Source: Escherichia phage IME178
Reading direction: 5' to 3' (one strand)
DNA length: 64,000 nt
Sequence record: NC_104190.1
The notes under the pieces were generated by a model that saw only the letters and a list, made by a program, of their open reading frames with translations, was not told where the DNA came from and ran no database searches. The translations under genes and the position numbers were made by a program. Positions 6,795 through 62,485 of the stretch are shown piece by piece; the stretch's first letter is position 1, and each line of letters opens with the position of its first letter.

Positions 6795-7083
6795 TACTCT
6801 TTTCCTTATTCTGTATTAAACTGTCAACCCAAGAGGTTAATACTTTGGTTTTAAACTCCTCGGGAGTTTCTCCTTCCCTAAGGTCTACCTCATTAAGATA
6901 GGTAGTAAGCCTTGTTTCTATCTCTATTTCAGTAGGAGAATTAAAACAAAAATTGACTGCTATTCCAGAATATATTACTCCGGTATCTCCTTTGACGAAA
7001 GCATTAACTAATGCTCTCCAACGAAGGGCATCAATACGCATTGCTCGTAATTCTTCTCGTATTTCCTTCATTCTATCATTCAT
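6784..7083 (-). CDS. hypothetical protein (99 aa)
   Basis: ORF in array. Confidence 0.45.
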   Translation of the reverse strand: MNDRMKEIREELRAMRIDALRWRALVNAFVKGDTGVIYSGIAVNFCFNSPTEIEIETRLTTYLNEVDLREGETPEEFKTKVLTSWVDSLIQNKEKSNES

Positions 7084-7691
7084 TAAAGAATCCTCTGTAC
7101 ACCGCAGCTATTATTTTTGTCTGTGGTAAATGTGGTGATTTTGCCAGTTTCATCATTAACTTGCGCAACCGTCAACTGCCCGTTGAAAACACCGCCAGTA
7201 TCAAGGTAAACACGGTTTTTATAAAGAAGTGGGTAAGGTACTCCAGTATGCCCATGAAACACGAAATCTACCCCTTTAACTTCTGGCACTTCTACCATGT
7301 ATTTTTCTTTAAATCCTGAATAACGCTGGAAATACGGGTGTTCCTCACCATTTTTGGACAAGTAGAAGCCTATTTCTTGGATTACATCTCGATCCCATAA
7401 ATATGGTTCAATATGGTACCCAGGATGGTCATGTGGGTCTTCCTTAGCTGCTTCTACTTGTGCAATAAGATTATCCCATACTGGGGTTTCTACCTCATTA
7501 CCGCATTCTTTGTATGTAAAAGGTACACCACCGTGAACAACACCATACTTCTTACCACGATGTCTAACAGTTAGGAATACTGGCATTTTTTTCAGCCATA
7601 TCTTCGGCGATATTTTTAATGGTGTCTGCATCCAGCTCTTCCATAGCCCATATACCACCGTTATACATCCAATTAGCCCAATCTCCTGCAA
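7083..7691 (-). CDS. Ser/Thr protein phosphatase, C-terminal fragment
   Basis: VVHGGV and FVFHGHT resemble the C-terminal half of lambda-type PPP phosphatases; N-terminal half lies in another frame. Confidence 0.6.
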   Translation of the reverse strand: MQEIGLIGCITVVYGLWKSWMQTPLKISPKIWLKKMPVFLTVRHRGKKYGVVHGGVPFTYKECGNEVETPVWDNLIAQVEAAKEDPHDHPGYHIEPYLWDRDVIQEIGFYLSKNGEEHPYFQRYSGFKEKYMVEVPEVKGVDFVFHGHTGVPYPLLYKNRVYLDTGGVFNGQLTVAQVNDETGKITTFTTDKNNSCGVQRIL

Positions 7692-7959
7692 TCATAAATT
7701 GGTCGTGATTACCACGGACACTGATAAAATGTGGATTATATAGGAATTTGGCTAAAACTTGTAGGTTTTGTGTGCCTCGGTCAATTAAGTCACCAACACA
7801 TACTAAGCAATCTTTCTTGCTATTATACCCAGCTAATTTCAACGCATCTTCCAGCAAATCATTGCATCCATGAATATCACCGACGAAAAACAAGTTGGCG
7901 TCATCCGGCACTACTAGAGTTTTATGTATATTAAATTCTTTTTTCATAATTATTCCCAA
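7564..7959 (-). CDS. Ser/Thr protein phosphatase, N-terminal fragment
   Basis: GDIHG, GDLIDRG and GNHD PPP motifs; ORF ends just after an A7 run. Confidence 0.65.
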   Translation of the reverse strand: MGIIMKKEFNIHKTLVVPDDANLFFVGDIHGCNDLLEDALKLAGYNSKKDCLVCVGDLIDRGTQNLQVLAKFLYNPHFISVRGNHDQFMIAGDWANWMYNGGIWAMEELDADTIKNIAEDMAEKNASIPNC

Positions 7960-8195
7960 ATAACAGTTAAAATAGTTGTGCCATACTCATTAGATAGTTG
8001 GAGAGTATATCCCTCTTTATAGATGGCTTTTATAGCTTCATAACTAATTTCATCACGATTAAACTGTACAAAAGAACCTCCAATCTCCACAGAAGAAACT
8101 ATTCTCTTTTTAACATACTTATACGTTTTCTTCTTGCTCTTAAGGAGTGCAGCTCTATTTATCCTGGCTAAACGTTTTGCTTGTTCCGCTAACAT
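7950..8195 (-). CDS. hypothetical protein (81 aa)
   Basis: ORF in array. Confidence 0.4.
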   Translation of the reverse strand: MLAEQAKRLARINRAALLKSKKKTYKYVKKRIVSSVEIGGSFVQFNRDEISYEAIKAIYKEGYTLQLSNEYGTTILTVIWE

Positions 8196-9006: not shown

Positions 9007-9027
9007 GTTTATTAGTCTTCTGGATTA

Positions 9028-9303
9028 TCATCCAGGAAATTTTTTAATAGCTTCGTGCATAGTTTCTTTACGAAGCTGACGTCCAATCAGAATATGATTA
9101 GCTTCTACTCGACCATTAGGTAAGCGATCTGCCAGAACTACTACAGGAACTTGGCGCACACCAAATTTCTGCATTAATTCTGTATTATCAGTCTCTTTGT
9201 GGACTTCCAAATTATAGTCATTGACTACTTTATCAAATACTGGCTCAAACATTTTGCAAGGGTTGCAAGTGGAACCTTTCAATAGATATACTAATTTACT
9301 CAT
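9028..9303 (-). CDS. thioredoxin/glutaredoxin-like protein
   Basis: CNPC active-site-like CxxC motif near the N-terminus, small size. Confidence 0.6.
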   Translation of the reverse strand: MSKLVYLLKGSTCNPCKMFEPVFDKVVNDYNLEVHKETDNTELMQKFGVRQVPVVVLADRLPNGRVEANHILIGRQLRKETMHEAIKKFPG

Positions 9304-9727
9304 AGTTATTAATGGCCTCTAAGAAGTTTTTCATAGTTTTTACGGTTGCGGTGCTCAGATCAAGATTTACACCCAAACACTCGGTTAATGCTTCCTGATA
9401 AGGAGCCTTTAATCTGCCTTCCGGGACTTCTACCTTCTTATATTCTTTATTTTTGACCTTTTTAATCATAGTCTCTAGTACAAGAAGCGGTAATTTAGCA
9501 CCTTCAATATCAGTACCCAAAAGTTCAGTTAAAATTTTATTAAGATCAAGACGAGTTAACTTTTTGCCCTTAGACATAGATGCACCTACCTTTGTATCAA
9601 TAGATTTTTCCGCTTTCTTTTCGAGCTTTTTGTACTCAGGAGAGTCATGATCACGGAGTGCAATGTTTAGCTCGTAATGTGGTATACGAAAATGTTCCGC
9701 CATTTGAGTATAGAAACGATCAGACAT
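9296..9727 (-). CDS. hypothetical protein (143 aa)
   Basis: ORF in array. Confidence 0.45.
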   Translation of the reverse strand: MSDRFYTQMAEHFRIPHYELNIALRDHDSPEYKKLEKKAEKSIDTKVGASMSKGKKLTRLDLNKILTELLGTDIEGAKLPLLVLETMIKKVKNKEYKKVEVPEGRLKAPYQEALTECLGVNLDLSTATVKTMKNFLEAINNYE

Positions 9728-10296: not shown

Positions 10297-10710
10297 TTAA
10301 ACTAGTTCGACATGACCGCCATCATAGGTACCACGTTTTATTTCATCGTGATAGTCTCCAGAATTATTCCAATCAGCACCAAAACGAAGTTTAATACCTA
10401 GTTCTTTACCCGCTTGTTCAAAAGCCTTTTTAACCGCCCAAAATGCTTCTAAGTCATTCCAATCAATTTTGCCATTAATATATGGAGCAAAATCAAGCGC
10501 ATCCCCAGTAATATGCTTGCTTTTACTAGGATCTTTTAAAAATGAAGTACCATTAGCAATATTCTGGGCACTTTGTGCTACTGTACGGATACCCTGTACG
10601 ATTGTGAAATCATATGGGGATAATTCTAAAGCTCTACGAGCTACTTTTTGTAGCTCTGGCTTAACGGTAGCTAATTGTTTTTCGCTATTTTTACCAAATT
10701 TAAAACTCAT
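10297..10710 (-). CDS. lys: endolysin, L-alanyl-D-glutamate peptidase (M15-like)
   Basis: 137 aa, the size I recall for T5 endolysin; zinc-peptidase-like H and D residues. Confidence 0.75.
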   Translation of the reverse strand: MSFKFGKNSEKQLATVKPELQKVARRALELSPYDFTIVQGIRTVAQSAQNIANGTSFLKDPSKSKHITGDALDFAPYINGKIDWNDLEAFWAVKKAFEQAGKELGIKLRFGADWNNSGDYHDEIKRGTYDGGHVELV

Positions 10711-10994
10711 ATTGATCTACCTAAAGATCTCTGTTGTGGGGAACAGAGCTTTGTTAAATATTCCTTAAATTTCTCAGAATCGGCTGCATCTACAGGATTA
10801 TCTTTCCAAGCAATACCAATATATCCAGCATAGATATTGTTTAGATTGAAATATGGACAAGTGTATATGTAATTAAAAGTAACGTTCTTAAACGCAGGTA
10901 TATTTAACCCCGTATATTTATTTACTCTTACACTTAAATCCGATGCGTAGTTAAAGCCCTCTAAGTGACGTCTGTATAGCTCAGACGTTTTTAT
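10707..10994 (-). CDS. holin-like protein, C-terminal fragment (no start codon)
   Basis: About 95 open codons ending at a TGA that overlaps the lys ATG; no ATG/GTG/TTG; frame offset from upstream ORF at an A5 run. Confidence 0.4.
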   Translation of the reverse strand: MKTSELYRRHLEGFNYASDLSVRVNKYTGLNIPAFKNVTFNYIYTCPYFNLNNIYAGYIGIAWKDNPVDAADSEKFKEYLTKLCSPQQRSLGRSI

Positions 10995-11364
10995 TTACTG
11001 CTTTATCGGCCAAGTCAGCCCTATCTAATTGCGCATTGCTTTCCCATGCAATAATGTTAGAATAATCATTAATGGCATCGGGTTTATACTTGACTACAAA
11101 AACAGCATCCGCACCCGTTTGAGAAAAGAGTACCATGCTCTTTTCTCTAGCTACATTAGGAAAGTTATCTATCCTTTGAGTTTGAACATCCTGTAGAACC
11201 GCAGACGTGGAGAAAGTCTTTAAGAATGACATCACCTCGCTAGTATTACTAACAAATAAGAAAATAATGACAGCAACTAAGATAGTTAGCAGACGTTTAA
11301 GAAGCGATGCTGGATCTTTCGCTTCTTGGAGCAGTACCGTTAATAATTGTAAGAACTTTTCCAA
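10981..11364 (-). CDS. holin-like membrane protein, N-terminal fragment
   Basis: Transmembrane segment; directly upstream of endolysin; frame breaks at the A5 run. Confidence 0.5.
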   Translation of the reverse strand: MEKFLQLLTVLLQEAKDPASLLKRLLTILVAVIIFLFVSNTSEVMSFLKTFSTSAVLQDVQTQRIDNFPNVAREKSMVLFSQTGADAVFVVKYKPDAINDYSNIIAWESNAQLDRADLADKAVNKNV

Positions 11365-11479
11365 TTGTAACCTCCTCTAACTAGTACCATTATACTAATT
11401 TTGGAGGAAAATTACAATGTATTTTTAAAGATTTTCTTTGGAGCACAAAATTTTGTCGTTGTCAAGAAGAATTTTAGAT

Positions 11480-12132: not shown

Positions 12133-12885
12133 TTATCCAACTAGTGGTTCTAGCTCTAAGTCACAGAAGTTATAAACTTCTAGTTTAAGGTTATTGATAC
12201 CATCGAATTTATTAACTAATTCGTGAGTAATATATTTTGCAGGAATACCACTTTCAGATGGATGATCTGATTTAATAGTGAACTTCTGCTCAGCGGGTAC
12301 TACATTTACTATCAAAGAATCCATATCTAAATGGTTTGTTTCTCTGAGTAACTCTCCTTCATTGGGGAATCTAACATCTGTTATTACGGCGACATCTGGG
12401 TCGTCTTTAGCGATGGATTGCTCCAGAATTATGAGCCAAATGCGTTCATGCACCAGCTGCCTTCCTAGCTCTGTCCCTACGAGCTGTAACATTTTTCTCG
12501 GAGAAATAAATAAACTATAAAGTCCGTCTTCTTTATTCTCTGAGATAAGTTGTTGGGGATTAAGATATTTTTCCTCAAAAATAGGCCAAACGTACGAGAA
12601 GTCTTCAAACTTATCGATACCGTACTTAAACCACACATCCCTGGCTCGCTCCAACTGAGATTGTGTGACCGTAAACCATTGGTCAATCTCTTTTCCCCTG
12701 CGCCCTCCTAGAAACTCTGGAGTTACACCGAGGATTACGGATGCAAGTTCATAAACGGGCTTAGCAAAACTATAACGACGAGATAAACACGTTGGATACG
12801 TGTCATTACACCAATCGATAATTAATTTTGCAACGGTATCTTTTCCCGAACCAGCTTCACCATGTAAACCGACTAATACTGACAT
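12133..12885 (-). CDS. dnk: deoxynucleoside monophosphate kinase
   Basis: P-loop GEAGSGKDT near the N-terminus; 250 aa, the size I recall for T5 dNMP kinase. Confidence 0.75.
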   Translation of the reverse strand: MSVLVGLHGEAGSGKDTVAKLIIDWCNDTYPTCLSRRYSFAKPVYELASVILGVTPEFLGGRRGKEIDQWFTVTQSQLERARDVWFKYGIDKFEDFSYVWPIFEEKYLNPQQLISENKEDGLYSLFISPRKMLQLVGTELGRQLVHERIWLIILEQSIAKDDPDVAVITDVRFPNEGELLRETNHLDMDSLIVNVVPAEQKFTIKSDHPSESGIPAKYITHELVNKFDGINNLKLEVYNFCDLELEPLVG

Positions 12886-12900
12886 TAATCTTTCCTATTG

Positions 12901-13239
12901 TTAATTGGTGGATAGTAAACTAAGCAACGTTTTTTCTTGTAAATCTTGGCGATAGAAGCAAACCATACCAGTCAGTCGTGAAATATATGAGTATTCTGCC
13001 TCACGGCATTTTGCCAACATATTCCAATCTTTATATGGTACAACAACTACTACGCCATCTTCTCCATTTGTAGCTAATTTCTTTTCAAACTTAAAGTCAA
13101 AGCTACACGGTTGAAGTCCTTTAGGCCAGTCTACATGAGCTTGCTTTAACTCATGAGATGGCTCTGGTTTTATTTCTTCTGCACAGCCTGTGATTGTGAT
13201 TGCGGCTGCGAGCAGTATTCCAAGTTTCCAGTTAAACAC
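12901..13239 (-). CDS. putative lipoprotein
   Basis: Signal peptide with lipobox ITGC. Confidence 0.55.
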   Translation of the reverse strand: MFNWKLGILLAAAITITGCAEEIKPEPSHELKQAHVDWPKGLQPCSFDFKFEKKLATNGEDGVVVVVPYKDWNMLAKCREAEYSYISRLTGMVCFYRQDLQEKTLLSLLSTN

Positions 13240-13619
13240 GCTAATCTTTCCTCGAACTCTTTACTCTGCTTTTTAGCAATTAATGTTACCAATCCAGGCT
13301 TTGCAGCTATAATATCTTGGCGACTAAGTGCTTTATCTAACTGCTTAATCTTTTTGTCTAGATCTGCTTGAGAAATATTATTCATCGTGAAATACTGATT
13401 CATTCTAGTCTCACGAAGTTCGCTTTCAGCTTTCACCTTATTAAGCGAAGTCTCTAGAGAAGAGATCTTTTTAGTAGCTACTGCAAGATCACCTGCTAGA
13501 GTCTCCACTTTATCTACTAAATGATAAGCACCAAACCCGATGCCTATCGCTAGACCTGCTCCCAGGATATACCACTTACCGTGCCATATTCCTGAAAGAA
13601 GTTTTTGTATCAAATCCAT
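13170..13619 (-). CDS. membrane-anchored coiled-coil protein
   Basis: N-terminal transmembrane segment followed by charged helices. Confidence 0.45.
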   Translation of the reverse strand: MDLIQKLLSGIWHGKWYILGAGLAIGIGFGAYHLVDKVETLAGDLAVATKKISSLETSLNKVKAESELRETRMNQYFTMNNISQADLDKKIKQLDKALSRQDIIAAKPGLVTLIAKKQSKEFEERLACLTGNLEYCSQPQSQSQAVQKK

Positions 13620-23103: not shown

Positions 23104-23281
23104 ATTAAATTACTTTTTCCAGTTCATCAGCTATGGCTTTGATTTTTTCAAAGTTTACATCACTAATAATGATACCTTCCAGTGACAGAGATATTCTAGC
23201 ATTTTTTCGTAGCAGATTCTTTTATCTGCTCTATCTCTTCTGGAGTAAACTCTCTACGTTCCATAGCTAACCTACATTATT

Positions 23282-24547: not shown

Positions 24548-24826
24548 TTAAGAATTTGATGCCTTTTTTTTTTTTTTTTTCTTCTTATACTTCCACGTTA
24601 ATGGATTCTGTCGATTGTGAACGCTTGAGATCTTTGTCTCGTCAAAGTTCTTCAATACCATGTAATCACAAGATAATTGTTCTAATGGAATGTGATCACC
24701 GTCAAAAGCGTATACATAAGGCTGTTGACTAGCACTATAATGATAGACTTTGTTAATTCTACGTTTCAGCAACTTATCCGCGCAGTAAATAAAGAAGTTT
24801 TCAGGATGCATCAGCAGCTCCCTCAA
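24548..24826 (-). CDS. hypothetical protein with C-terminal poly-Lys encoded by an A17 tract
   Basis: ORF runs through a 17-nt homopolymer giving KYKKKKKKKK before the stop. Confidence 0.4.
   Translation of the reverse strand: MRELLMHPENFFIYCADKLLKRRINKVYHYSASQQPYVYAFDGDHIPLEQLSCDYMVLKNFDETKISSVHNRQNPLTWKYKKKKKKKKASNS
24564..24580. repeat. 17-nt T/A homopolymer
   Basis: Uninterrupted T17 on the plus strand inside the 3-prime end of a minus-strand ORF. Confidence 0.9.
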
Positions 24827-30312: not shown

Positions 30313-30617
30313 TCATATTCAACACGATTGGGGTTTTCTTTATACCCTAAGTCAAGCAAATCATTACGCATAGTTTGCTTAGCTACTGGGTTCGAGGTTA
30401 CTAGTACCACTTTCTTTGGTCTCTGCCCAAATTCTAAGAGTAAACGAAGAATTTGATAACCTTCCATACCATCTACAGCCAAGTCATTATCCATATAAAC
30501 GAAATGGCCTGTGGTATCAGTTTTATTCAGAAACTCTATAGCGGCTTCTGGGGTTCGAATGATAATGTCCATTCCGTGAAGATTACGCACATCATCAATC
30601 AAAATATGAAAAGTCAT
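30300..30617 (-). CDS. stand-alone receiver-like (CheY/REC-like) domain protein
   Basis: Alternating beta/alpha pattern with DD (LIDDV), D (YMDNDL) and T (VVLVTS) at REC positions. Confidence 0.45.
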   Translation of the reverse strand: MTFHILIDDVRNLHGMDIIIRTPEAAIEFLNKTDTTGHFVYMDNDLAVDGMEGYQILRLLLEFGQRPKKVVLVTSNPVAKQTMRNDLLDLGYKENPNRVEYDWQE

Positions 30618-31059
30618 AATAGCCTCGTTTCATCAATTTAAAAATATATTATACAGATAACTTAGTAAATTAGCAAATACATTTTTAAATTGTGAAACTA
30701 GTAAACCGATAAACAGCCTAGAGGCGCCACAGGCCATATCTTATGAGCCATGTACCTTTAATCTAGGGTTTGAATCATCAACGAATACTTTGCATCTTTT
30801 AGCTTTAGAAGTTTAGAAGTTTGAGTTCTTTAAACTTTTCAGCTTTCATACTTAAATGTTGATCTTTGAAGTTGTGTCGGTAATATCAACGACGCTTTGT
30901 TCTTACGTGTCAGCTTAAAAGGCTGGTGTAATAAACATAATCTCCAATAGATTATACTTTATAGTATGGTCAGCGGTCCTATTTAACCTCGTATTTCAAC
31001 CGCTGCTGCGAGGTAAGATGCTTGGGCTTTCGTCTACCGATTTACTAGCTTTTAAATTA

Positions 31060-31413
31060 TTACTCTACTTCAATGAAGGTAGAGGCGTTAGACTCGGACA
31101 GAACAAAGTCAACATTTGTTGCAAAGTCCTGATATTCCTCGTCATGCTGCTTAATCAGCTTTTCCAGTTCCAGCGGATCAATCAAGAATGGAGTATTCTT
31201 GAGTTCCAGCAGGTTGAGCTGCATTTTAACTTCATCTTCGGAAGTTTTTCTTATCGCGGGTAGCCATGCTATCCTGCAAACGCTCATATTTAGCATCAAA
31301 CTGTGCTTTCTGCGTATTAAACTTAACCGTGGCGGCATGGAACTGCTTACGCATGTTAGCCAGCAGTTGGGCTTTAAGTTCCATAGAACGCTTAGCTTCA
31401 ATTGCTTCCGCAA
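31060..31413 (-). CDS. hypothetical protein, probable C-terminal fragment
   Basis: Overlaps the upstream ORF by 182 nt in another frame; frames meet at an A5 run. Confidence 0.4.
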   Translation of the reverse strand: MRKQLKLSVLWNLKPNCWLTCVSSSMPPRLSLIRRKHSLMLNMSVCRIAWLPAIRKTSEDEVKMQLNLLELKNTPFLIDPLELEKLIKQHDEEYQDFATNVDFVLSESNASTFIEVE

Positions 31414-31699
31414 CAGTCATCTTACGAGAGCCAATCTCAACGATTGTTTCCGCATTGCTTTTAATCAGAGCAGCTTTGATACGATCACGCTGGGACATCA
31501 TATCCAGCAGAGACTGGAAATCAGTCTTAATACGAGTAGACAGATCAGCTACTTCGATTGCAGCGCCAACTACAACCTGGTTTTTATCCTTACCTTCACC
31601 AACAGCGATCAGAAGCTGCTGTTCAGTAGCTTTACGGATTTTAGCTTCCAGAGATTTGATAGTTGCCAGAGCGCGAGTTTTAGAAATACGAGTAGTCAT
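31232..31699 (-). CDS. hypothetical coiled-coil protein (155 aa)
   Basis: ORF with charged helical composition. Confidence 0.5.
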   Translation of the reverse strand: MTTRISKTRALATIKSLEAKIRKATEQQLLIAVGEGKDKNQVVVGAAIEVADLSTRIKTDFQSLLDMMSQRDRIKAALIKSNAETIVEIGSRKMTVAEAIEAKRSMELKAQLLANMRKQFHAATVKFNTQKAQFDAKYERLQDSMATRDKKNFRR

Positions 31700-31752
31700 T
31701 ATTTGCTTCCTTATATGAAGTTTGAGATTTGAATTTGTTTAAAGTTGGCCTA

Positions 31753-31935
31753 TTACAGACCAATTGCCAGCAGAGTGCGCAGAACAGTATCATTACTGTT
31801 ATCAATTTTAGGATTAGCACGATTTAGCAGATCAAAGATTTTCTGGATACCTGATTGACGTTCAGCCATACAACGGATACCCAGATTACGAGTAGCTTTC
31901 TTACCATTTTTACGAACATTTTTAGATACTGGCAT
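31753..31935 (-). CDS. small basic protein (60 aa)
   Basis: Lys/Arg-rich ORF. Confidence 0.4.
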   Translation of the reverse strand: MPVSKNVRKNGKKATRNLGIRCMAERQSGIQKIFDLLNRANPKIDNSNDTVLRTLLAIGL

Positions 31936-32005
31936 ATATGTTTTCCTTTTATTGTTTTCTCAAATTTATGAATATATTATACAGAATTTTGGGGCCGGAA
32001 GCAAA

Positions 32006-32707
32006 TCAAATTTTCATTTTTTCGATCATAGCTGCAACACAATAGCTTTCAACTAAGGCATCAAATGCAGGGTCATGCTTAGCTGGATAGATCCCATAAC
32101 GAATAGTGTCCATCTTCTCCATTTTAGCTATTGCCCAGCTAATACCTTCGGTCTCTAGAGCTTTATAACTGTACCCAGCTTGCATCCAGAGATTACGAAG
32201 AGATCGAACATTACCCAAATTCCAGAATTTCCACGGAACTACCTCTTCATTAGTTCCAGCATGGAACGTGTTTGCAGAGTAGATAGTCATATCAAACTCT
32301 GGACCATTGCCATAATACAAAGCATTTTCGCCTAGAGCCAACTCCATAATATTTTGAGCCATAGAGAAGGCAGCATAGTTTGAGCCAAATTTATTAGTGC
32401 AATTATGTTTACCATTTTGGAAGGCAATCAGTTTTGGATTACGTTCTTTCATGGCTTCCATAATGTGGATAGCAGACGGGCTATTTTTAGCTTGATCCAT
32501 CCAGAATGCTAGAGTAGATGCTGTAACTTTGGCACCAGAATTAAGCTGATCCTGCACATCCAAAGTAGCAAATACTAAGTCAGGGTCTTTATCAATCCCA
32601 TGCATAGCCACAAAAGCGAAAGAAGGCATTACGATATGAGTAGTACCACAATCTCCTGGAGTTCCTAGAGATTCAATATCTAGCATACCAAATGGTTTTA
32701 CTTTCAT
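32006..32707 (-). CDS. DEDD-type 3-prime to 5-prime exonuclease (DexA-like)
   Basis: N-terminal MLDIESLG (Exo I-like DxE) and C-terminal H/D motifs, like T4 DexA. Confidence 0.55.
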   Translation of the reverse strand: MKVKPFGMLDIESLGTPGDCGTTHIVMPSFAFVAMHGIDKDPDLVFATLDVQDQLNSGAKVTASTLAFWMDQAKNSPSAIHIMEAMKERNPKLIAFQNGKHNCTNKFGSNYAAFSMAQNIMELALGENALYYGNGPEFDMTIYSANTFHAGTNEEVVPWKFWNLGNVRSLRNLWMQAGYSYKALETEGISWAIAKMEKMDTIRYGIYPAKHDPAFDALVESYCVAAMIEKMKI

Positions 32708-34707: not shown

Positions 34708-34802
34708 ATGTGTACCTCCAATTTATAAAATATATTATATTTAAATTTCACTAAATAAGCAAATGAAATTTAAATATAATAGCCCCGAAGGGGCTATTTG
34801 AG

Positions 34803-55045: not shown

Positions 55046-56518
55046 ATGACCTTGTTTAACGTGCAAGCTGTAGTGTTGAAGATGCTTCTAGCTTCTGAAC
55101 AGAAGCAAATAGCATTGGAAACATTCTCAAAACTGCATAAAGATCATTTTAATGACGCTTTCTCCTCAATTTACCAAGCCGTCCAGAATTATTATAAAAA
55201 ATATAACACAATGCCGTCCATTGACGCACTGATGCTTGAAGCTAATAGGAACGCCCGCCTTTCTCAAGCTCTAGTCGTCTTAGCTAACACTCAAATTCCA
55301 GAAGTGAGCATGGAACAGGCACTTGAAGTCCTAGAGGCTGAATATACACAGGATTTATTCCTGAAGCTTCTAGAAACAGACGTGCTTCAAGATTTAACAA
55401 TGCTGGATCAGGGAGAAATTCTCAACCGAGTTGCCTCCCTTCACTTAAAATTAGAAGAGAAAGTAACGAATACTGGAAAAGTATTCAACGCAGATAACAT
55501 GCGTATTTTCCAGAGAGAAGAAGATACCAAACTGAACCTAATCGCTCTTGGTATTTGTAATGAGTTTGACGCTCAAATTGGTTTAGCTCGCACAGAAACG
55601 TTACTGCTTGGTGGTTGGCGTGGTACTGGTAAATCCATTATCTGTTCAAACATACAGGTTCAGCAATATTTGAATGGAGATATTGCTCCATACTTCTCAA
55701 TTGAGATGAAAGAACATGAAGTATTTAGACGTAATCTAGCCATGTTAGCTGGTGTATCCGCACTAGCAATGCGTAATAATACTCTAGAAGGTGCAGCTCT
55801 GCTGAGATTAGCCAGAACTAGAGCTAGAATGTTTAATGGCGGTGAAGAGCTTTTCGATAACTTCGTTAAACAGTACACAATGGCTAAGATGAGTGATTTC
55901 TACGATATGGAGAGTAAACTAATAGAAGGGTATGAACTACATACTCCTATGATTATCGTTTATGACCCTGAACTGTCCATTACAACAGTTGATGTAGAAT
56001 TAAATAAATTAGTTGCTAGATATGGTGATAAAGTTACAGTAGCTTTATTGGACTATATTAACCAAACCCGACTTCCAGACTCTAAAACCATTGATATGTA
56101 TGACTGGAAAGAACAGATGGTTGTTAGCTCGTCTTTCAAATCTATCTGCCAGAAACATAACGTGGCTGGCGTAGCTCCTTACCAGATCGATCAAGATGGT
56201 AGAACACGTATGTCAAAGGGTATTCTTGATTCCGCAGACATGGCTGCTAATCTTAATGCTGCAAAAGCTGATAATGGTCAAGGTGCTATTATGTTTGACT
56301 TCGTTAAGACTCGTTCTTCTGATAGCGTGAAGTTTATGCCTAAAATGAACTGGGAAACCTTGCGGATGGATAACACTACCAACCTAGCGATGGAAGATAT
56401 ATCTCAAATGGAAGCTGAGTTCGTTATCCCTATTGAGAAGGATAAGCCGGCTCAACCTAAACGTGCTAAGAAAGACAAAACCGAAAATTCAACAGGTGAA
56501 CAGGCCAGCGATATATGA
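55046..56518 (+). CDS. DnaB-like replicative helicase
   Basis: RecA-fold Walker A GGWRGTGKS; longest-ORF start sits inside the terminator hairpin so start moved downstream (55046-55082 uncertain). Confidence 0.65.
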   Translation: MTLFNVQAVVLKMLLASEQKQIALETFSKLHKDHFNDAFSSIYQAVQNYYKKYNTMPSIDALMLEANRNARLSQALVVLANTQIPEVSMEQALEVLEAEYTQDLFLKLLETDVLQDLTMLDQGEILNRVASLHLKLEEKVTNTGKVFNADNMRIFQREEDTKLNLIALGICNEFDAQIGLARTETLLLGGWRGTGKSIICSNIQVQQYLNGDIAPYFSIEMKEHEVFRRNLAMLAGVSALAMRNNTLEGAALLRLARTRARMFNGGEELFDNFVKQYTMAKMSDFYDMESKLIEGYELHTPMIIVYDPELSITTVDVELNKLVARYGDKVTVALLDYINQTRLPDSKTIDMYDWKEQMVVSSSFKSICQKHNVAGVAPYQIDQDGRTRMSKGILDSADMAANLNAAKADNGQGAIMFDFVKTRSSDSVKFMPKMNWETLRMDNTTNLAMEDISQMEAEFVIPIEKDKPAQPKRAKKDKTENSTGEQASDI

Positions 56519-57294
56519 GTAGAATAACAGAACTACTTGATCTGAAAGGCATTGAATATAAAGACACAGGTGGGGACATCCTCATCTGTTGTCTCAATCC
56601 AGATCATGACGATAAACACCCAAGTTTGCGTATTGATCCTGAAACAGGTATTATGCACTGCTTGAGTTGTGGCTTCGGTAAAGGTATACCGAGCATTTAC
56701 CATTATTTTAATGAGACTCAGTACCGACAGTCCCCAAGGCTATCGCAAGTACGTAAAAAGATTTCAGAGATTAGGAATGGGTCAACGAATCTTGCAATTC
56801 CTGAATCTGCTTACCTTTTCGAAGGTGATTTCCGAGGTATAAGTTCTAAGACCTTGAAGAAATATTTTGCTTTCCAACACCAAGCAGACTGGGAAGGCAG
56901 AATTGTATTCCCAATCACAGATGCTGTTGGACGCAATATCCTATTTTTGGGTCGTTCTATAAACAGTTCTGCCCCTCCTAAATACTTAGTAAAACCAAAA
57001 CAAGTTTCACCACCAATTTTTCCTGTACGATATAATACCCCAATTCTTATTCTAGTTGAAGGTATCTTTGATATGCTGAATCTAGAGGATAATGGTATAG
57101 ACTATGCTTCTTGTTGCTTCGGTACACATCAGTTTACTTCAGATAACATTGCAGATAAGTTTAGTCCGTATATTATTGCTGGTGTTAAAGTTGTTGTTAT
57201 CTTACTAGATAATGATGCTTCTGGTAATAAAGCTGCACAAGCACTGGCTAAGCTAATTCGTACAAAAAACGCGTTTAACACCTGTAGTTGCTAA
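56515..57294 (+). CDS. DnaG-like DNA primase (zinc-binding plus TOPRIM), truncated by frameshift
   Basis: Zn ribbon CCLNPDH...HCLSCGFG, TOPRIM ILVEGIFD and LLDNDASG; ORF stops just after an A6 run. Confidence 0.75.
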   Translation: MSRITELLDLKGIEYKDTGGDILICCLNPDHDDKHPSLRIDPETGIMHCLSCGFGKGIPSIYHYFNETQYRQSPRLSQVRKKISEIRNGSTNLAIPESAYLFEGDFRGISSKTLKKYFAFQHQADWEGRIVFPITDAVGRNILFLGRSINSSAPPKYLVKPKQVSPPIFPVRYNTPILILVEGIFDMLNLEDNGIDYASCCFGTHQFTSDNIADKFSPYIIAGVKVVVILLDNDASGNKAAQALAKLIRTKNAFNTCSC

Positions 57295-57406
57295 CTTTCT
57301 TCTGCCTGAAGGTAAAGACCCAGGTGACTTAAGTAAAGAAGAAATTGATATGTTAGCAAAACGTATTGAAATTTTAGTTGCTGAATCGCTTAAAGATTTG
57401 GTATAA
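57257..57406 (+). CDS. DNA primase C-terminal fragment (+1 frame)
   Basis: +1 frame after the A6 run encodes the canonical TOPRIM tail LPEGKDPGDL. Confidence 0.6.
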   Translation, partial: FVQKTRLTPVVANFLLPEGKDPGDLSKEEIDMLAKRIEILVAESLKDLV

Positions 57407-62264: not shown

Positions 62265-62485
62265 ATGATGTATAATATACACATAAATTTGAGAGAGAAA
62301 GTTTCGGATTGATAAGAAAGTCCGAAGCAGAAAAATAAAAAATTTTAGTTGCTAAATTCTCTCGAAATCTAGTATAATATATACATAAATTCGAGGAGAA
62401 AATAAAAATTAAATTCTTCGATTATGAAAAGCTATACTTACTAGCTAGAGGAAATTCCGACCTAATTATTAAGCTATTCAAAAGA

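What the first reader, a model, noticed from the sequence alone, without database searches (positions are those of the whole stretch)
31060..31699. Fourth homopolymer-associated frame break (A5 run at 31245-31249)
ORFs 31232-31699 and 31060-31413 overlap by 182 nt in different frames. Removing one A from AAGAAAAAC makes a single ORF of about 217 aa. Together with the primase, holin and phosphatase cases this is a recurring pattern of single-A excess in A-runs of coding strands.
Basis: inference. Interest (0 to 1): 0.4.

Follow-up and report, generated by a model that had tools for sequence, protein, structure and literature searches.

The report
Extra-A sequencing error splits phage gene
The frame break is real in the sequence as given, but it is almost certainly a homopolymer-length sequencing or assembly error that splits an ordinary 212-residue early gene of a T5-like phage, one of at least nine such errors in this window.

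Summary
The window is a T5-like phage (Tequintavirus). On the minus strand, 31060-31699 holds the homolog of T5 gene T5.085, a single 639-bp, 212-aa gene in all relatives examined. Here it is 640 bp: the run at 31245-31249 is A5 where relatives have A4. That gives a 155-aa ORF and an overlapping +1-frame ORF. None of 227 phage records and none of 22 IMG/VR contigs with matching flanks carries A5. 242 homologs, down to 32% identity, are single proteins of about 204-215 aa. The family's most conserved motif lies downstream of the break.

The event is not isolated. The window has nine private one-base differences from three relatives, all insertions, all in homopolymers. Their frequency rises with run length: 0/540 for length 4, 2/201 for length 5, 5/37 for length 6, 1/1 for length 7. 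Seven break conserved genes (phosphatase, thioredoxin, holin, T5.044, a small ORF, T5.085, primase). Deleting one base restores each. The comparators have 0-1 such events despite more private substitutions.

The apparent sense-strand bias is explained by composition (p about 0.44). No recoding signals were found.

Verdict: homopolymer overcall artefact. Interest is low.

The parts
31060..31699 (-). Homolog of T5 gene T5.085 (AKFV33 orf083; PHROG 1491). It is 640 bp as read, and 639 bp / 212 aa once one A is removed.
   Evidence: Annotated as a single 639-bp CDS in AKFV33, NBSal003 and ECOP18. Alignment A1 shows one gap only. Full-length PHROG match.
31245..31249 (-). A5 run on the coding strand (T5 on the + strand) carrying one base more than the A4 of relatives. 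This is the site of the frame break.
   Evidence: No phage record among 227 matches the 81-nt query at 99% or better, and every row listed aligns 81 nt to 80 nt. All 22 IMG/VR matches have A4.
31232..31699 (-). Upstream ORF as read (155 aa). Residues 1-151 are authentic; the last four (NFRR) are out-of-frame read-through to a TGA.
31060..31244 (-). The authentic C-terminal 61 codons (TSEDE...FIEVE) plus stop, displaced into the +1 frame. They hold the invariant residues D174, P175 and the motif VDFVLSESNAxT.
   Evidence: Alignment A2 of 38 homologs.
7586..7592 (-). Private +1 in a run (T7 on +, A7 in sense) that splits the Ser/Thr phosphatase gene. Repair reopens 7083-7985.
9040..9045 (-). Private +1 (A6 in sense) near the 3' end of the thioredoxin gene.
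10988..10992 (-). Private +1 (A5 in sense) that splits the holin gene. Repair reopens 10707-11375.
12930..12935 (-). Private +1 (A6 in sense) near the 3' end of the T5.044 homolog, which is labelled o-spanin in one record.
23202..23207 (-). Private +1 (A6 in sense) in a small ORF of the tRNA region. Repair reopens 23105-23275.
57264..57269 (+). Private +1 (A6) that truncates the primase gene. Repair reopens 56500-57405.
34790..34793 (.). Private +1 in an intergenic G4 run, inside the hairpin GCCCC-GAA-GGGGC.
62337..62342 (.). Private +1 in an intergenic A6 run downstream of the helicase gene.

Best explanation
The extra A at 31245-31249 is a homopolymer-length overcall introduced during sequencing, consensus calling or assembly of this T5-like phage genome. 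The real phage most likely has A4 here and encodes one 212-aa protein (T5.085 family). This protein is made from the early region, is mostly alpha-helical with a DIP1984-like fold, and has unknown function. The same technical process added one base to at least eight other homopolymers in the window, producing seven apparent frameshifts in conserved genes.

Shown: the extra base, that it is private to this sequence, the single-ORF state of all homologs, and the run-length-dependent, one-directional genome-wide pattern.

Inferred: that the cause is technical rather than mutational. No reads are available.
For: (1) The only indel relative to AKFV33, NBSal003 and ECOP18 across the gene is A5 against A4.
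(2) No record with A5 among 227 phage records. 22 of 22 IMG/VR contigs have A4.
(3) 242 homologs down to 32% identity are single proteins of about 204-215 aa covering 96-100% of the repaired query. The alignment runs through the break without interruption, and the strongest conservation lies downstream of it.
(4) Nine private isolated 1-bp indels in the window, all insertions and all in homopolymers. The strict control gives window 7, AKFV33 1, ECOP18 1, PK7 0. The window nevertheless has the fewest private substitutions: 325 against 783, 1039 and 449. Fisher p = 1.5e-5.
(5) The rate rises with run length: 0/2016, 0/540, 2/201, 5/37, 1/1 for lengths 3 to 7.
(6) Nine of nine events are +1 (two-sided binomial p = 0.004).
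(7) Deleting one base restores ORFs matching the relatives' annotated genes in all seven coding cases, including primase and holin (lengths).
(8) All seven coding events are absent from every phage record with matching flanks.
Against: No reads, quality values or platform information are available, so a real mutation at this one site cannot be excluded. T5.085 is not known to be essential. Real replication slippage also depends on run length. The source record could not be identified.
Confidence: 0.86

Rival explanations
1. The extra A is a genuine +1 insertion in this phage stock. The T5.085 homolog would then be a real pseudogene or split gene: a 155-aa N-terminal fragment, possibly with a C-terminal peptide re-initiated at the in-frame ATG about 10 nt after the TGA.
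For: The gene is an accessory early gene of unknown function. Homopolymer slippage is a common real mutation. An ATG in the second frame (KMQLN...) lies just after the ORF1 stop.
Against: This would require the same isolate to carry six further private frameshifts in conserved genes, including primase and holin, while having the fewest private substitutions of the four genomes compared. All events are +1. The break separates the N-terminal part from the invariant C-terminal motif.
Confidence: 0.1
2. Programmed recoding: a +1 ribosomal slip of tRNA-Lys on AAA-AAC, or RNA-polymerase slippage on the A run, restores the full-length protein from a deliberately out-of-frame gene.
For: A +1 slip on AAAAA would yield exactly the relatives' peptide ...DKKTSEDE... 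This follows from reading.
Against: The frameshift is not conserved in any homolog. The A-site codon AAC is neither a stop nor a rare codon, and no SD-like element precedes the site. The downstream RNA shows no notable structure (z = -1.66). There is no Rfam hit. From general knowledge, A5 is far shorter than the runs of about 8-9 or more that give efficient transcriptional slippage in E. coli.
Confidence: 0.02
3. Two genuinely separate, overlapping genes occupy 31232-31699 and 31060-31413.
For: Both ORFs exist as read.
Against: All homologs are single ORFs. The second ORF's TTG start and first 56 codons are simply the other frame of the conserved N-terminal part. The PHROG profile spans both parts in one match.
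Confidence: 0.01

Closest known systems
T5 gene T5.085 / AKFV33 orf083 / PHROG 1491 (labelled 'tail fiber protein' or 'hypothetical protein' in databases)
   Same: About 99% nucleotide identity to AKFV33 and ECOP18. Same position, between the T5.084 and T5.086 homologs. Full-length profile match.
   Different: The window copy has one extra A (A5 against A4) that breaks the frame. The 'tail fiber' label is not supported by fold or context.
Homopolymer-length errors of flow-based or long-read sequencing (454, Ion Torrent, nanopore, PacBio); attribution is general knowledge
   Same: The errors are confined to homopolymers, their frequency rises with run length, they go in one direction, they are private to one record, and they create spurious frameshifts in conserved genes.
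   Different: The platform is unknown and no reads could be examined, so the attribution is an inference.
DIP1984 family (PDB 3kdq; NCBIfam NF038048; Pfam PF20935 / DUF6847)
   Different: Sequence-profile matches are far below threshold: E 0.07-0.19 in 2-3 of 38 members, and E 0.15 for the profile against 3kdq. The phage protein is about 60 residues longer. The function of both is unknown.
Programmed +1 frameshift sites (for example prfB) and transcriptional-slippage genes
   Same: A run of A at the frame junction, where a +1 slip would give the conserved peptide.
   Different: No conservation in homologs, no stimulatory elements, and the run is too short.

Membership tests
T5.085 / PHROG 1491 protein family | End-to-end match to the family profile | tested here: met
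   The repaired 212-aa protein matches profile positions 1-210 of 211 over residues 1-212, E 7.6e-82.
T5.085 / PHROG 1491 protein family | Single uninterrupted ORF of about 204-215 codons | tested here: not met
   As read, the gene is split into 155-aa and 117-aa ORFs. It meets the feature only after one A is deleted. The homologs listed in full length are about 204-215 aa.
T5.085 / PHROG 1491 protein family | Conserved C-terminal motif DP...VDFVLSESNAxT and central TVAEAIE | tested here: met
   Both are present. The C-terminal motif lies in the +1 frame downstream of the break.
T5.085 / PHROG 1491 protein family | Synteny in Tequintavirus, between the T5.084 and T5.086 homologs on the early-gene strand | tested here: met
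Homopolymer-length sequencing/assembly error | The variant is private to one record while close relatives agree with each other | tested here: met
   No record at 99% identity or better at any of the seven coding sites. 22 of 22 IMG/VR contigs have A4.
Homopolymer-length sequencing/assembly error | Many such events in one genome, confined to homopolymers, with frequency rising with run length and a single direction | tested here: met
   Nine events, all +1. Rates are 0/540, 2/201, 5/37 and 1/1 for lengths 4 to 7. Comparators have 0-1. Fisher p = 1.5e-5.
Homopolymer-length sequencing/assembly error | Read-level evidence: mixed or ambiguous run length in reads, or a platform known for such errors | not testable with these tools
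   No reads or metadata are available. The source record was not found.
Programmed +1 ribosomal frameshift / transcriptional slippage | The frameshift is conserved among homologs | tested here: not met
   All homologs are in frame.
Programmed +1 ribosomal frameshift / transcriptional slippage | Stimulatory context: a slow A-site codon or stop, an upstream SD-like element, downstream structure, or an A/T run of about 8-9 or more | tested here: not met
   The A-site codon is AAC and there is no SD-like sequence. Downstream fold z = -1.66. The run is only A5. No Rfam hit.
DIP1984 family (NF038048 / PF20935 / PDB 3kdq) | Sequence-profile score above the curated cut-off | tested here: not met
   Only 2 of 38 members match NF038048 (best E 0.071) and 3 of 38 match PF20935 (best E 0.19). 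The A2 profile against 3kdq gives E 0.15.
DIP1984 family (NF038048 / PF20935 / PDB 3kdq) | Shared fold | tested here: met
   [not shown]
Phage tail fibre protein (database label) | Encoded in the tail/structural module, with a fibre-like fold | tested here: not met
   The gene lies in the early region among phosphatase, lysis-gene, tRNA and nucleotide-metabolism genes. In a roughly 150-kb phage contig the homolog sits among UvsY, RNA ligase, nuclease and homing-endonuclease genes. In Tepidibacter it is a solitary chromosomal gene. The model is a helical bundle with a small sheet.

The most novel reading that the evidence does not exclude
The phage really carries +1 insertions in A5-A7 runs of seven conserved genes, primase and holin among them. 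It stays viable because low-level +1 ribosomal slippage or RNA-polymerase slippage on these runs supplies enough full-length protein. An alternative version is that a slippage-prone replicase makes these runs hypervariable within the population, so the consensus captured a heterogeneous state.
Probability: 0.03. Interest if true: 0.7.

Novelty: not a real feature. Interest (0 to 1): 0.07.

Why it matters
The main value is quality control. If taken at face value, this window would add at least seven truncated or split proteins to databases: phosphatase, thioredoxin, holin, T5.044, a small ORF, T5.085 and primase. It could also be misread as overlapping genes or as recoding. The census gives a practical rule for this genome: A/T runs of 6 or more are unreliable, since 6 of 39 were over-called.

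A minor by-product concerns the 'tail fiber protein' label that has spread through T5-like genomes for this gene. It is unsupported. The family has a DIP1984-like fold and sits in an early-gene context.

Tried and rejected
- I looked up the exact truncated products (the 155-aa ORF and the 259-aa truncated primase) in the 153-billion-gene index to identify the source record and platform. Neither is on record.
- Three literature searches (T5-like + frameshift + homopolymer; Tequintavirus + homopolymer; DIP1984) returned nothing relevant.
- Pfam and NCBIfam gave no significant family for the protein.
- An Rfam scan of 30500-32100 found nothing at E of 1 or below. The promoter/terminator scan found only the expected T5-type promoter at 30676-30648.
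- I tested whether the 'sense-strand A' bias points to a transcription-linked process. It is rejected, because composition alone predicts it (p about 0.44).
- I tested whether the window is simply more divergent than its relatives. It is rejected: it has the fewest private substitutions.
- The first raw indel list was dominated by compensated indels in divergent stretches. I replaced it with a filter for isolated indels with clean flanks.

Full report
**What is in the sequence**

The + strand reads ...ggaagTTTTTcttatc... with T5 at 31245-31249. On the minus strand this is GAT AAG AAA AAC TTC CGA AGA TGA. They overlap by 182 nt in different frames. Deleting one A gives a 639-nt ORF of 212 aa.

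**What the locus is**

The window is a T5-like phage (Tequintavirus, Demerecviridae).
- 437 phage records match 30900-31950, the best at 99.3% identity.
- In AKFV33, NBSal003 and ECOP18 the corresponding stretch is one 639-bp CDS. This is AKFV33 orf083, the homolog of T5.085, lying between the T5.084 and T5.086 homologs.
- A four-way DNA alignment of the gene shows a single gap column: window A5 against A4 in all three relatives. The rest is a handful of substitutions.

**Is A5 found anywhere else?**

- An 81-nt query centred on the run matches 227 phage records. None reaches 99% identity, and every row listed aligns 81 nt to 80 nt.
- A pattern scan of IMG/VR allowing either A4 or A4 plus one more base found 22 contigs. 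All 22 matches are 28 nt long, meaning A4.

**Is the single ORF the family norm?**

- The repaired protein matches PHROG 1491 over its full length (E 7.6e-82).
- A search of 5.8 billion proteins returned 242 homologs with E of 0.001 or better. Identity goes down to 32%. Nearly all of the 120 listed are about 204-215 aa and cover 96-100% of the query.
- In an alignment of 38 diverse members, the region of the break (...RDK-KTSEDE...) is continuous.
- The most conserved part of the family lies downstream of the break: D174, P175 and the motif VDFVLSESNAxT.

It fails, so the single-gene reading stands.

**Genome-wide pattern**

I aligned the whole window to AKFV33, ECOP18 and PK7 and kept only isolated 1-bp indels with clean flanks of 30 nt on each side.

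The window differs from all or most comparators at nine sites:

| Site | Run (+ strand) |
|---|---|
| 7586-7592 | T7 |
| 9040-9045 | T6 |
| 10988-10992 | T5 |
| 12930-12935 | T6 |
| 23202-23207 | T6 |
| 31245-31249 | T5 |
| 34790-34793 | G4 |
| 57264-57269 | A6 |
| 62337-62342 | A6 |

All nine are insertions in the window, and all are in homopolymers.

Further results:
- **Symmetric control.** Each genome was taken in turn as the query, requiring every covering genome to disagree with it. This gives 7 private events for the window against 1, 1 and 0 for the comparators.
- **Divergence.** The window has the fewest private substitutions: 325 against 783, 1039 and 449. The indel excess is therefore not a by-product of divergence (Fisher p = 1.5e-5).
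- **Run length.** The event rate climbs with run length: 0/2016 (length 3), 0/540 (4), 2/201 (5), 5/37 (6), 1/1 (7).
- **Repair test.** Deleting one base at each coding site reopens an ORF matching the relatives' annotated gene (reference annotations):
  - phosphatase, 7083-7985
  - thioredoxin, 9012-9317
  - holin, 10707-11375
  - T5.044 homolog, 12885-13259
  - a 56-codon ORF, 23105-23275
  - T5.085 homolog, 31060-31737
  - primase, 56500-57405
- **Private status.** For all seven coding sites, 81-nt queries find 56 to 422 matching phage records each, and none carries the extra base.

**The 'coding-strand A' remark**

All eight A/T events are A on the sense strand. This is what composition predicts. 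Of length-6 A/T runs, 36 of 37 are sense-A. Of length-5 runs, 142 of 201 are. The probability of the observed pattern under strand-blind error is about 0.44. Nothing points to a transcription-linked process.

**Recoding?**

A +1 slip of tRNA-Lys on AAAAA would give exactly the conserved peptide DKKTSEDE. The evidence is against it:
- The frameshift is absent from every homolog.
- The A-site codon (AAC) is ordinary, and there is no SD-like element upstream.
- The 95 nt downstream fold no better than shuffled sequence would suggest (z = -1.66).
- Rfam finds nothing.
- A5 is too short for efficient transcriptional slippage (general knowledge).

**Most likely explanation**

This is a systematic homopolymer overcall in the sequencing or assembly of this genome (confidence about 0.86). 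The private, one-directional, run-length-dependent pattern is shown. Its technical origin is inferred, because reads and platform are not available. The source record could not be identified from its truncated products.

A genuine mutation at this particular site (about 0.1) cannot be excluded. It would, however, require one isolate to carry seven frameshifts in conserved genes, primase and holin among them, while being the least divergent of the four genomes.

**The gene itself**

- An AlphaFold2 model built from the 38-sequence alignment is confident (mean pLDDT 88). It is mostly helical with a small sheet formed by the termini and a central hairpin.
- Sequence-level support is weak. The profile against 3kdq gives E 0.15. 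NF038048 (DIP1984 family) matches 2 of 38 members and PF20935 (DUF6847) matches 3 of 38, all below threshold.
- Distant homologs sit among UvsY, RNA ligase, nuclease and homing-endonuclease genes on a roughly 150-kb phage contig, or stand alone in a Tepidibacter chromosome.

The widespread 'tail fiber protein' label is therefore unsupported. The function is unknown.

**Verdict**

The frame break is best treated as an artefact and is of low interest.

Noticed in passing
window 24564-24580: There is a T17 run on the + strand, which is A17 on the sense strand of a small minus-strand ORF (homolog of AKFV33 orf070). AKFV33 and ECOP18 have TTTCTTTTT there instead. The window therefore has 8 extra T and a C-to-T change, which would shift the frame of the last dozen or so codons. 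This could be another homopolymer artefact or a real expansion.
   Followed up: partly
They fall in the thioredoxin 3' end, the T5.044 homolog 3' end and a 56-codon ORF in the tRNA region.
   Followed up: yes
window 34790-34793 and 62337-62342: Two private +1 events in intergenic runs. One is G4 inside the hairpin GCCCC-GAA-GGGGC. The other is A6 downstream of the helicase gene. They were not checked against the full phage collection.
   Followed up: partly
[not shown]
   Followed up: partly
window 30677-31059: A stretch of about 380 nt between the T5.085 homolog's stop and the T5-type promoter of the next gene carries no annotated feature in AKFV33, NBSal003 or ECOP18. It gave no Rfam hit at E of 1 or below.
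   Followed up: partly
PV611632.1 (PK7), region matching window 30900-31950: The PK7 record has no annotated CDS over its intact (A4) T5.085 and T5.086 homologs. Its near-identical sister record PK8 does annotate them. This is an annotation gap, not a sequence difference.
   Followed up: no
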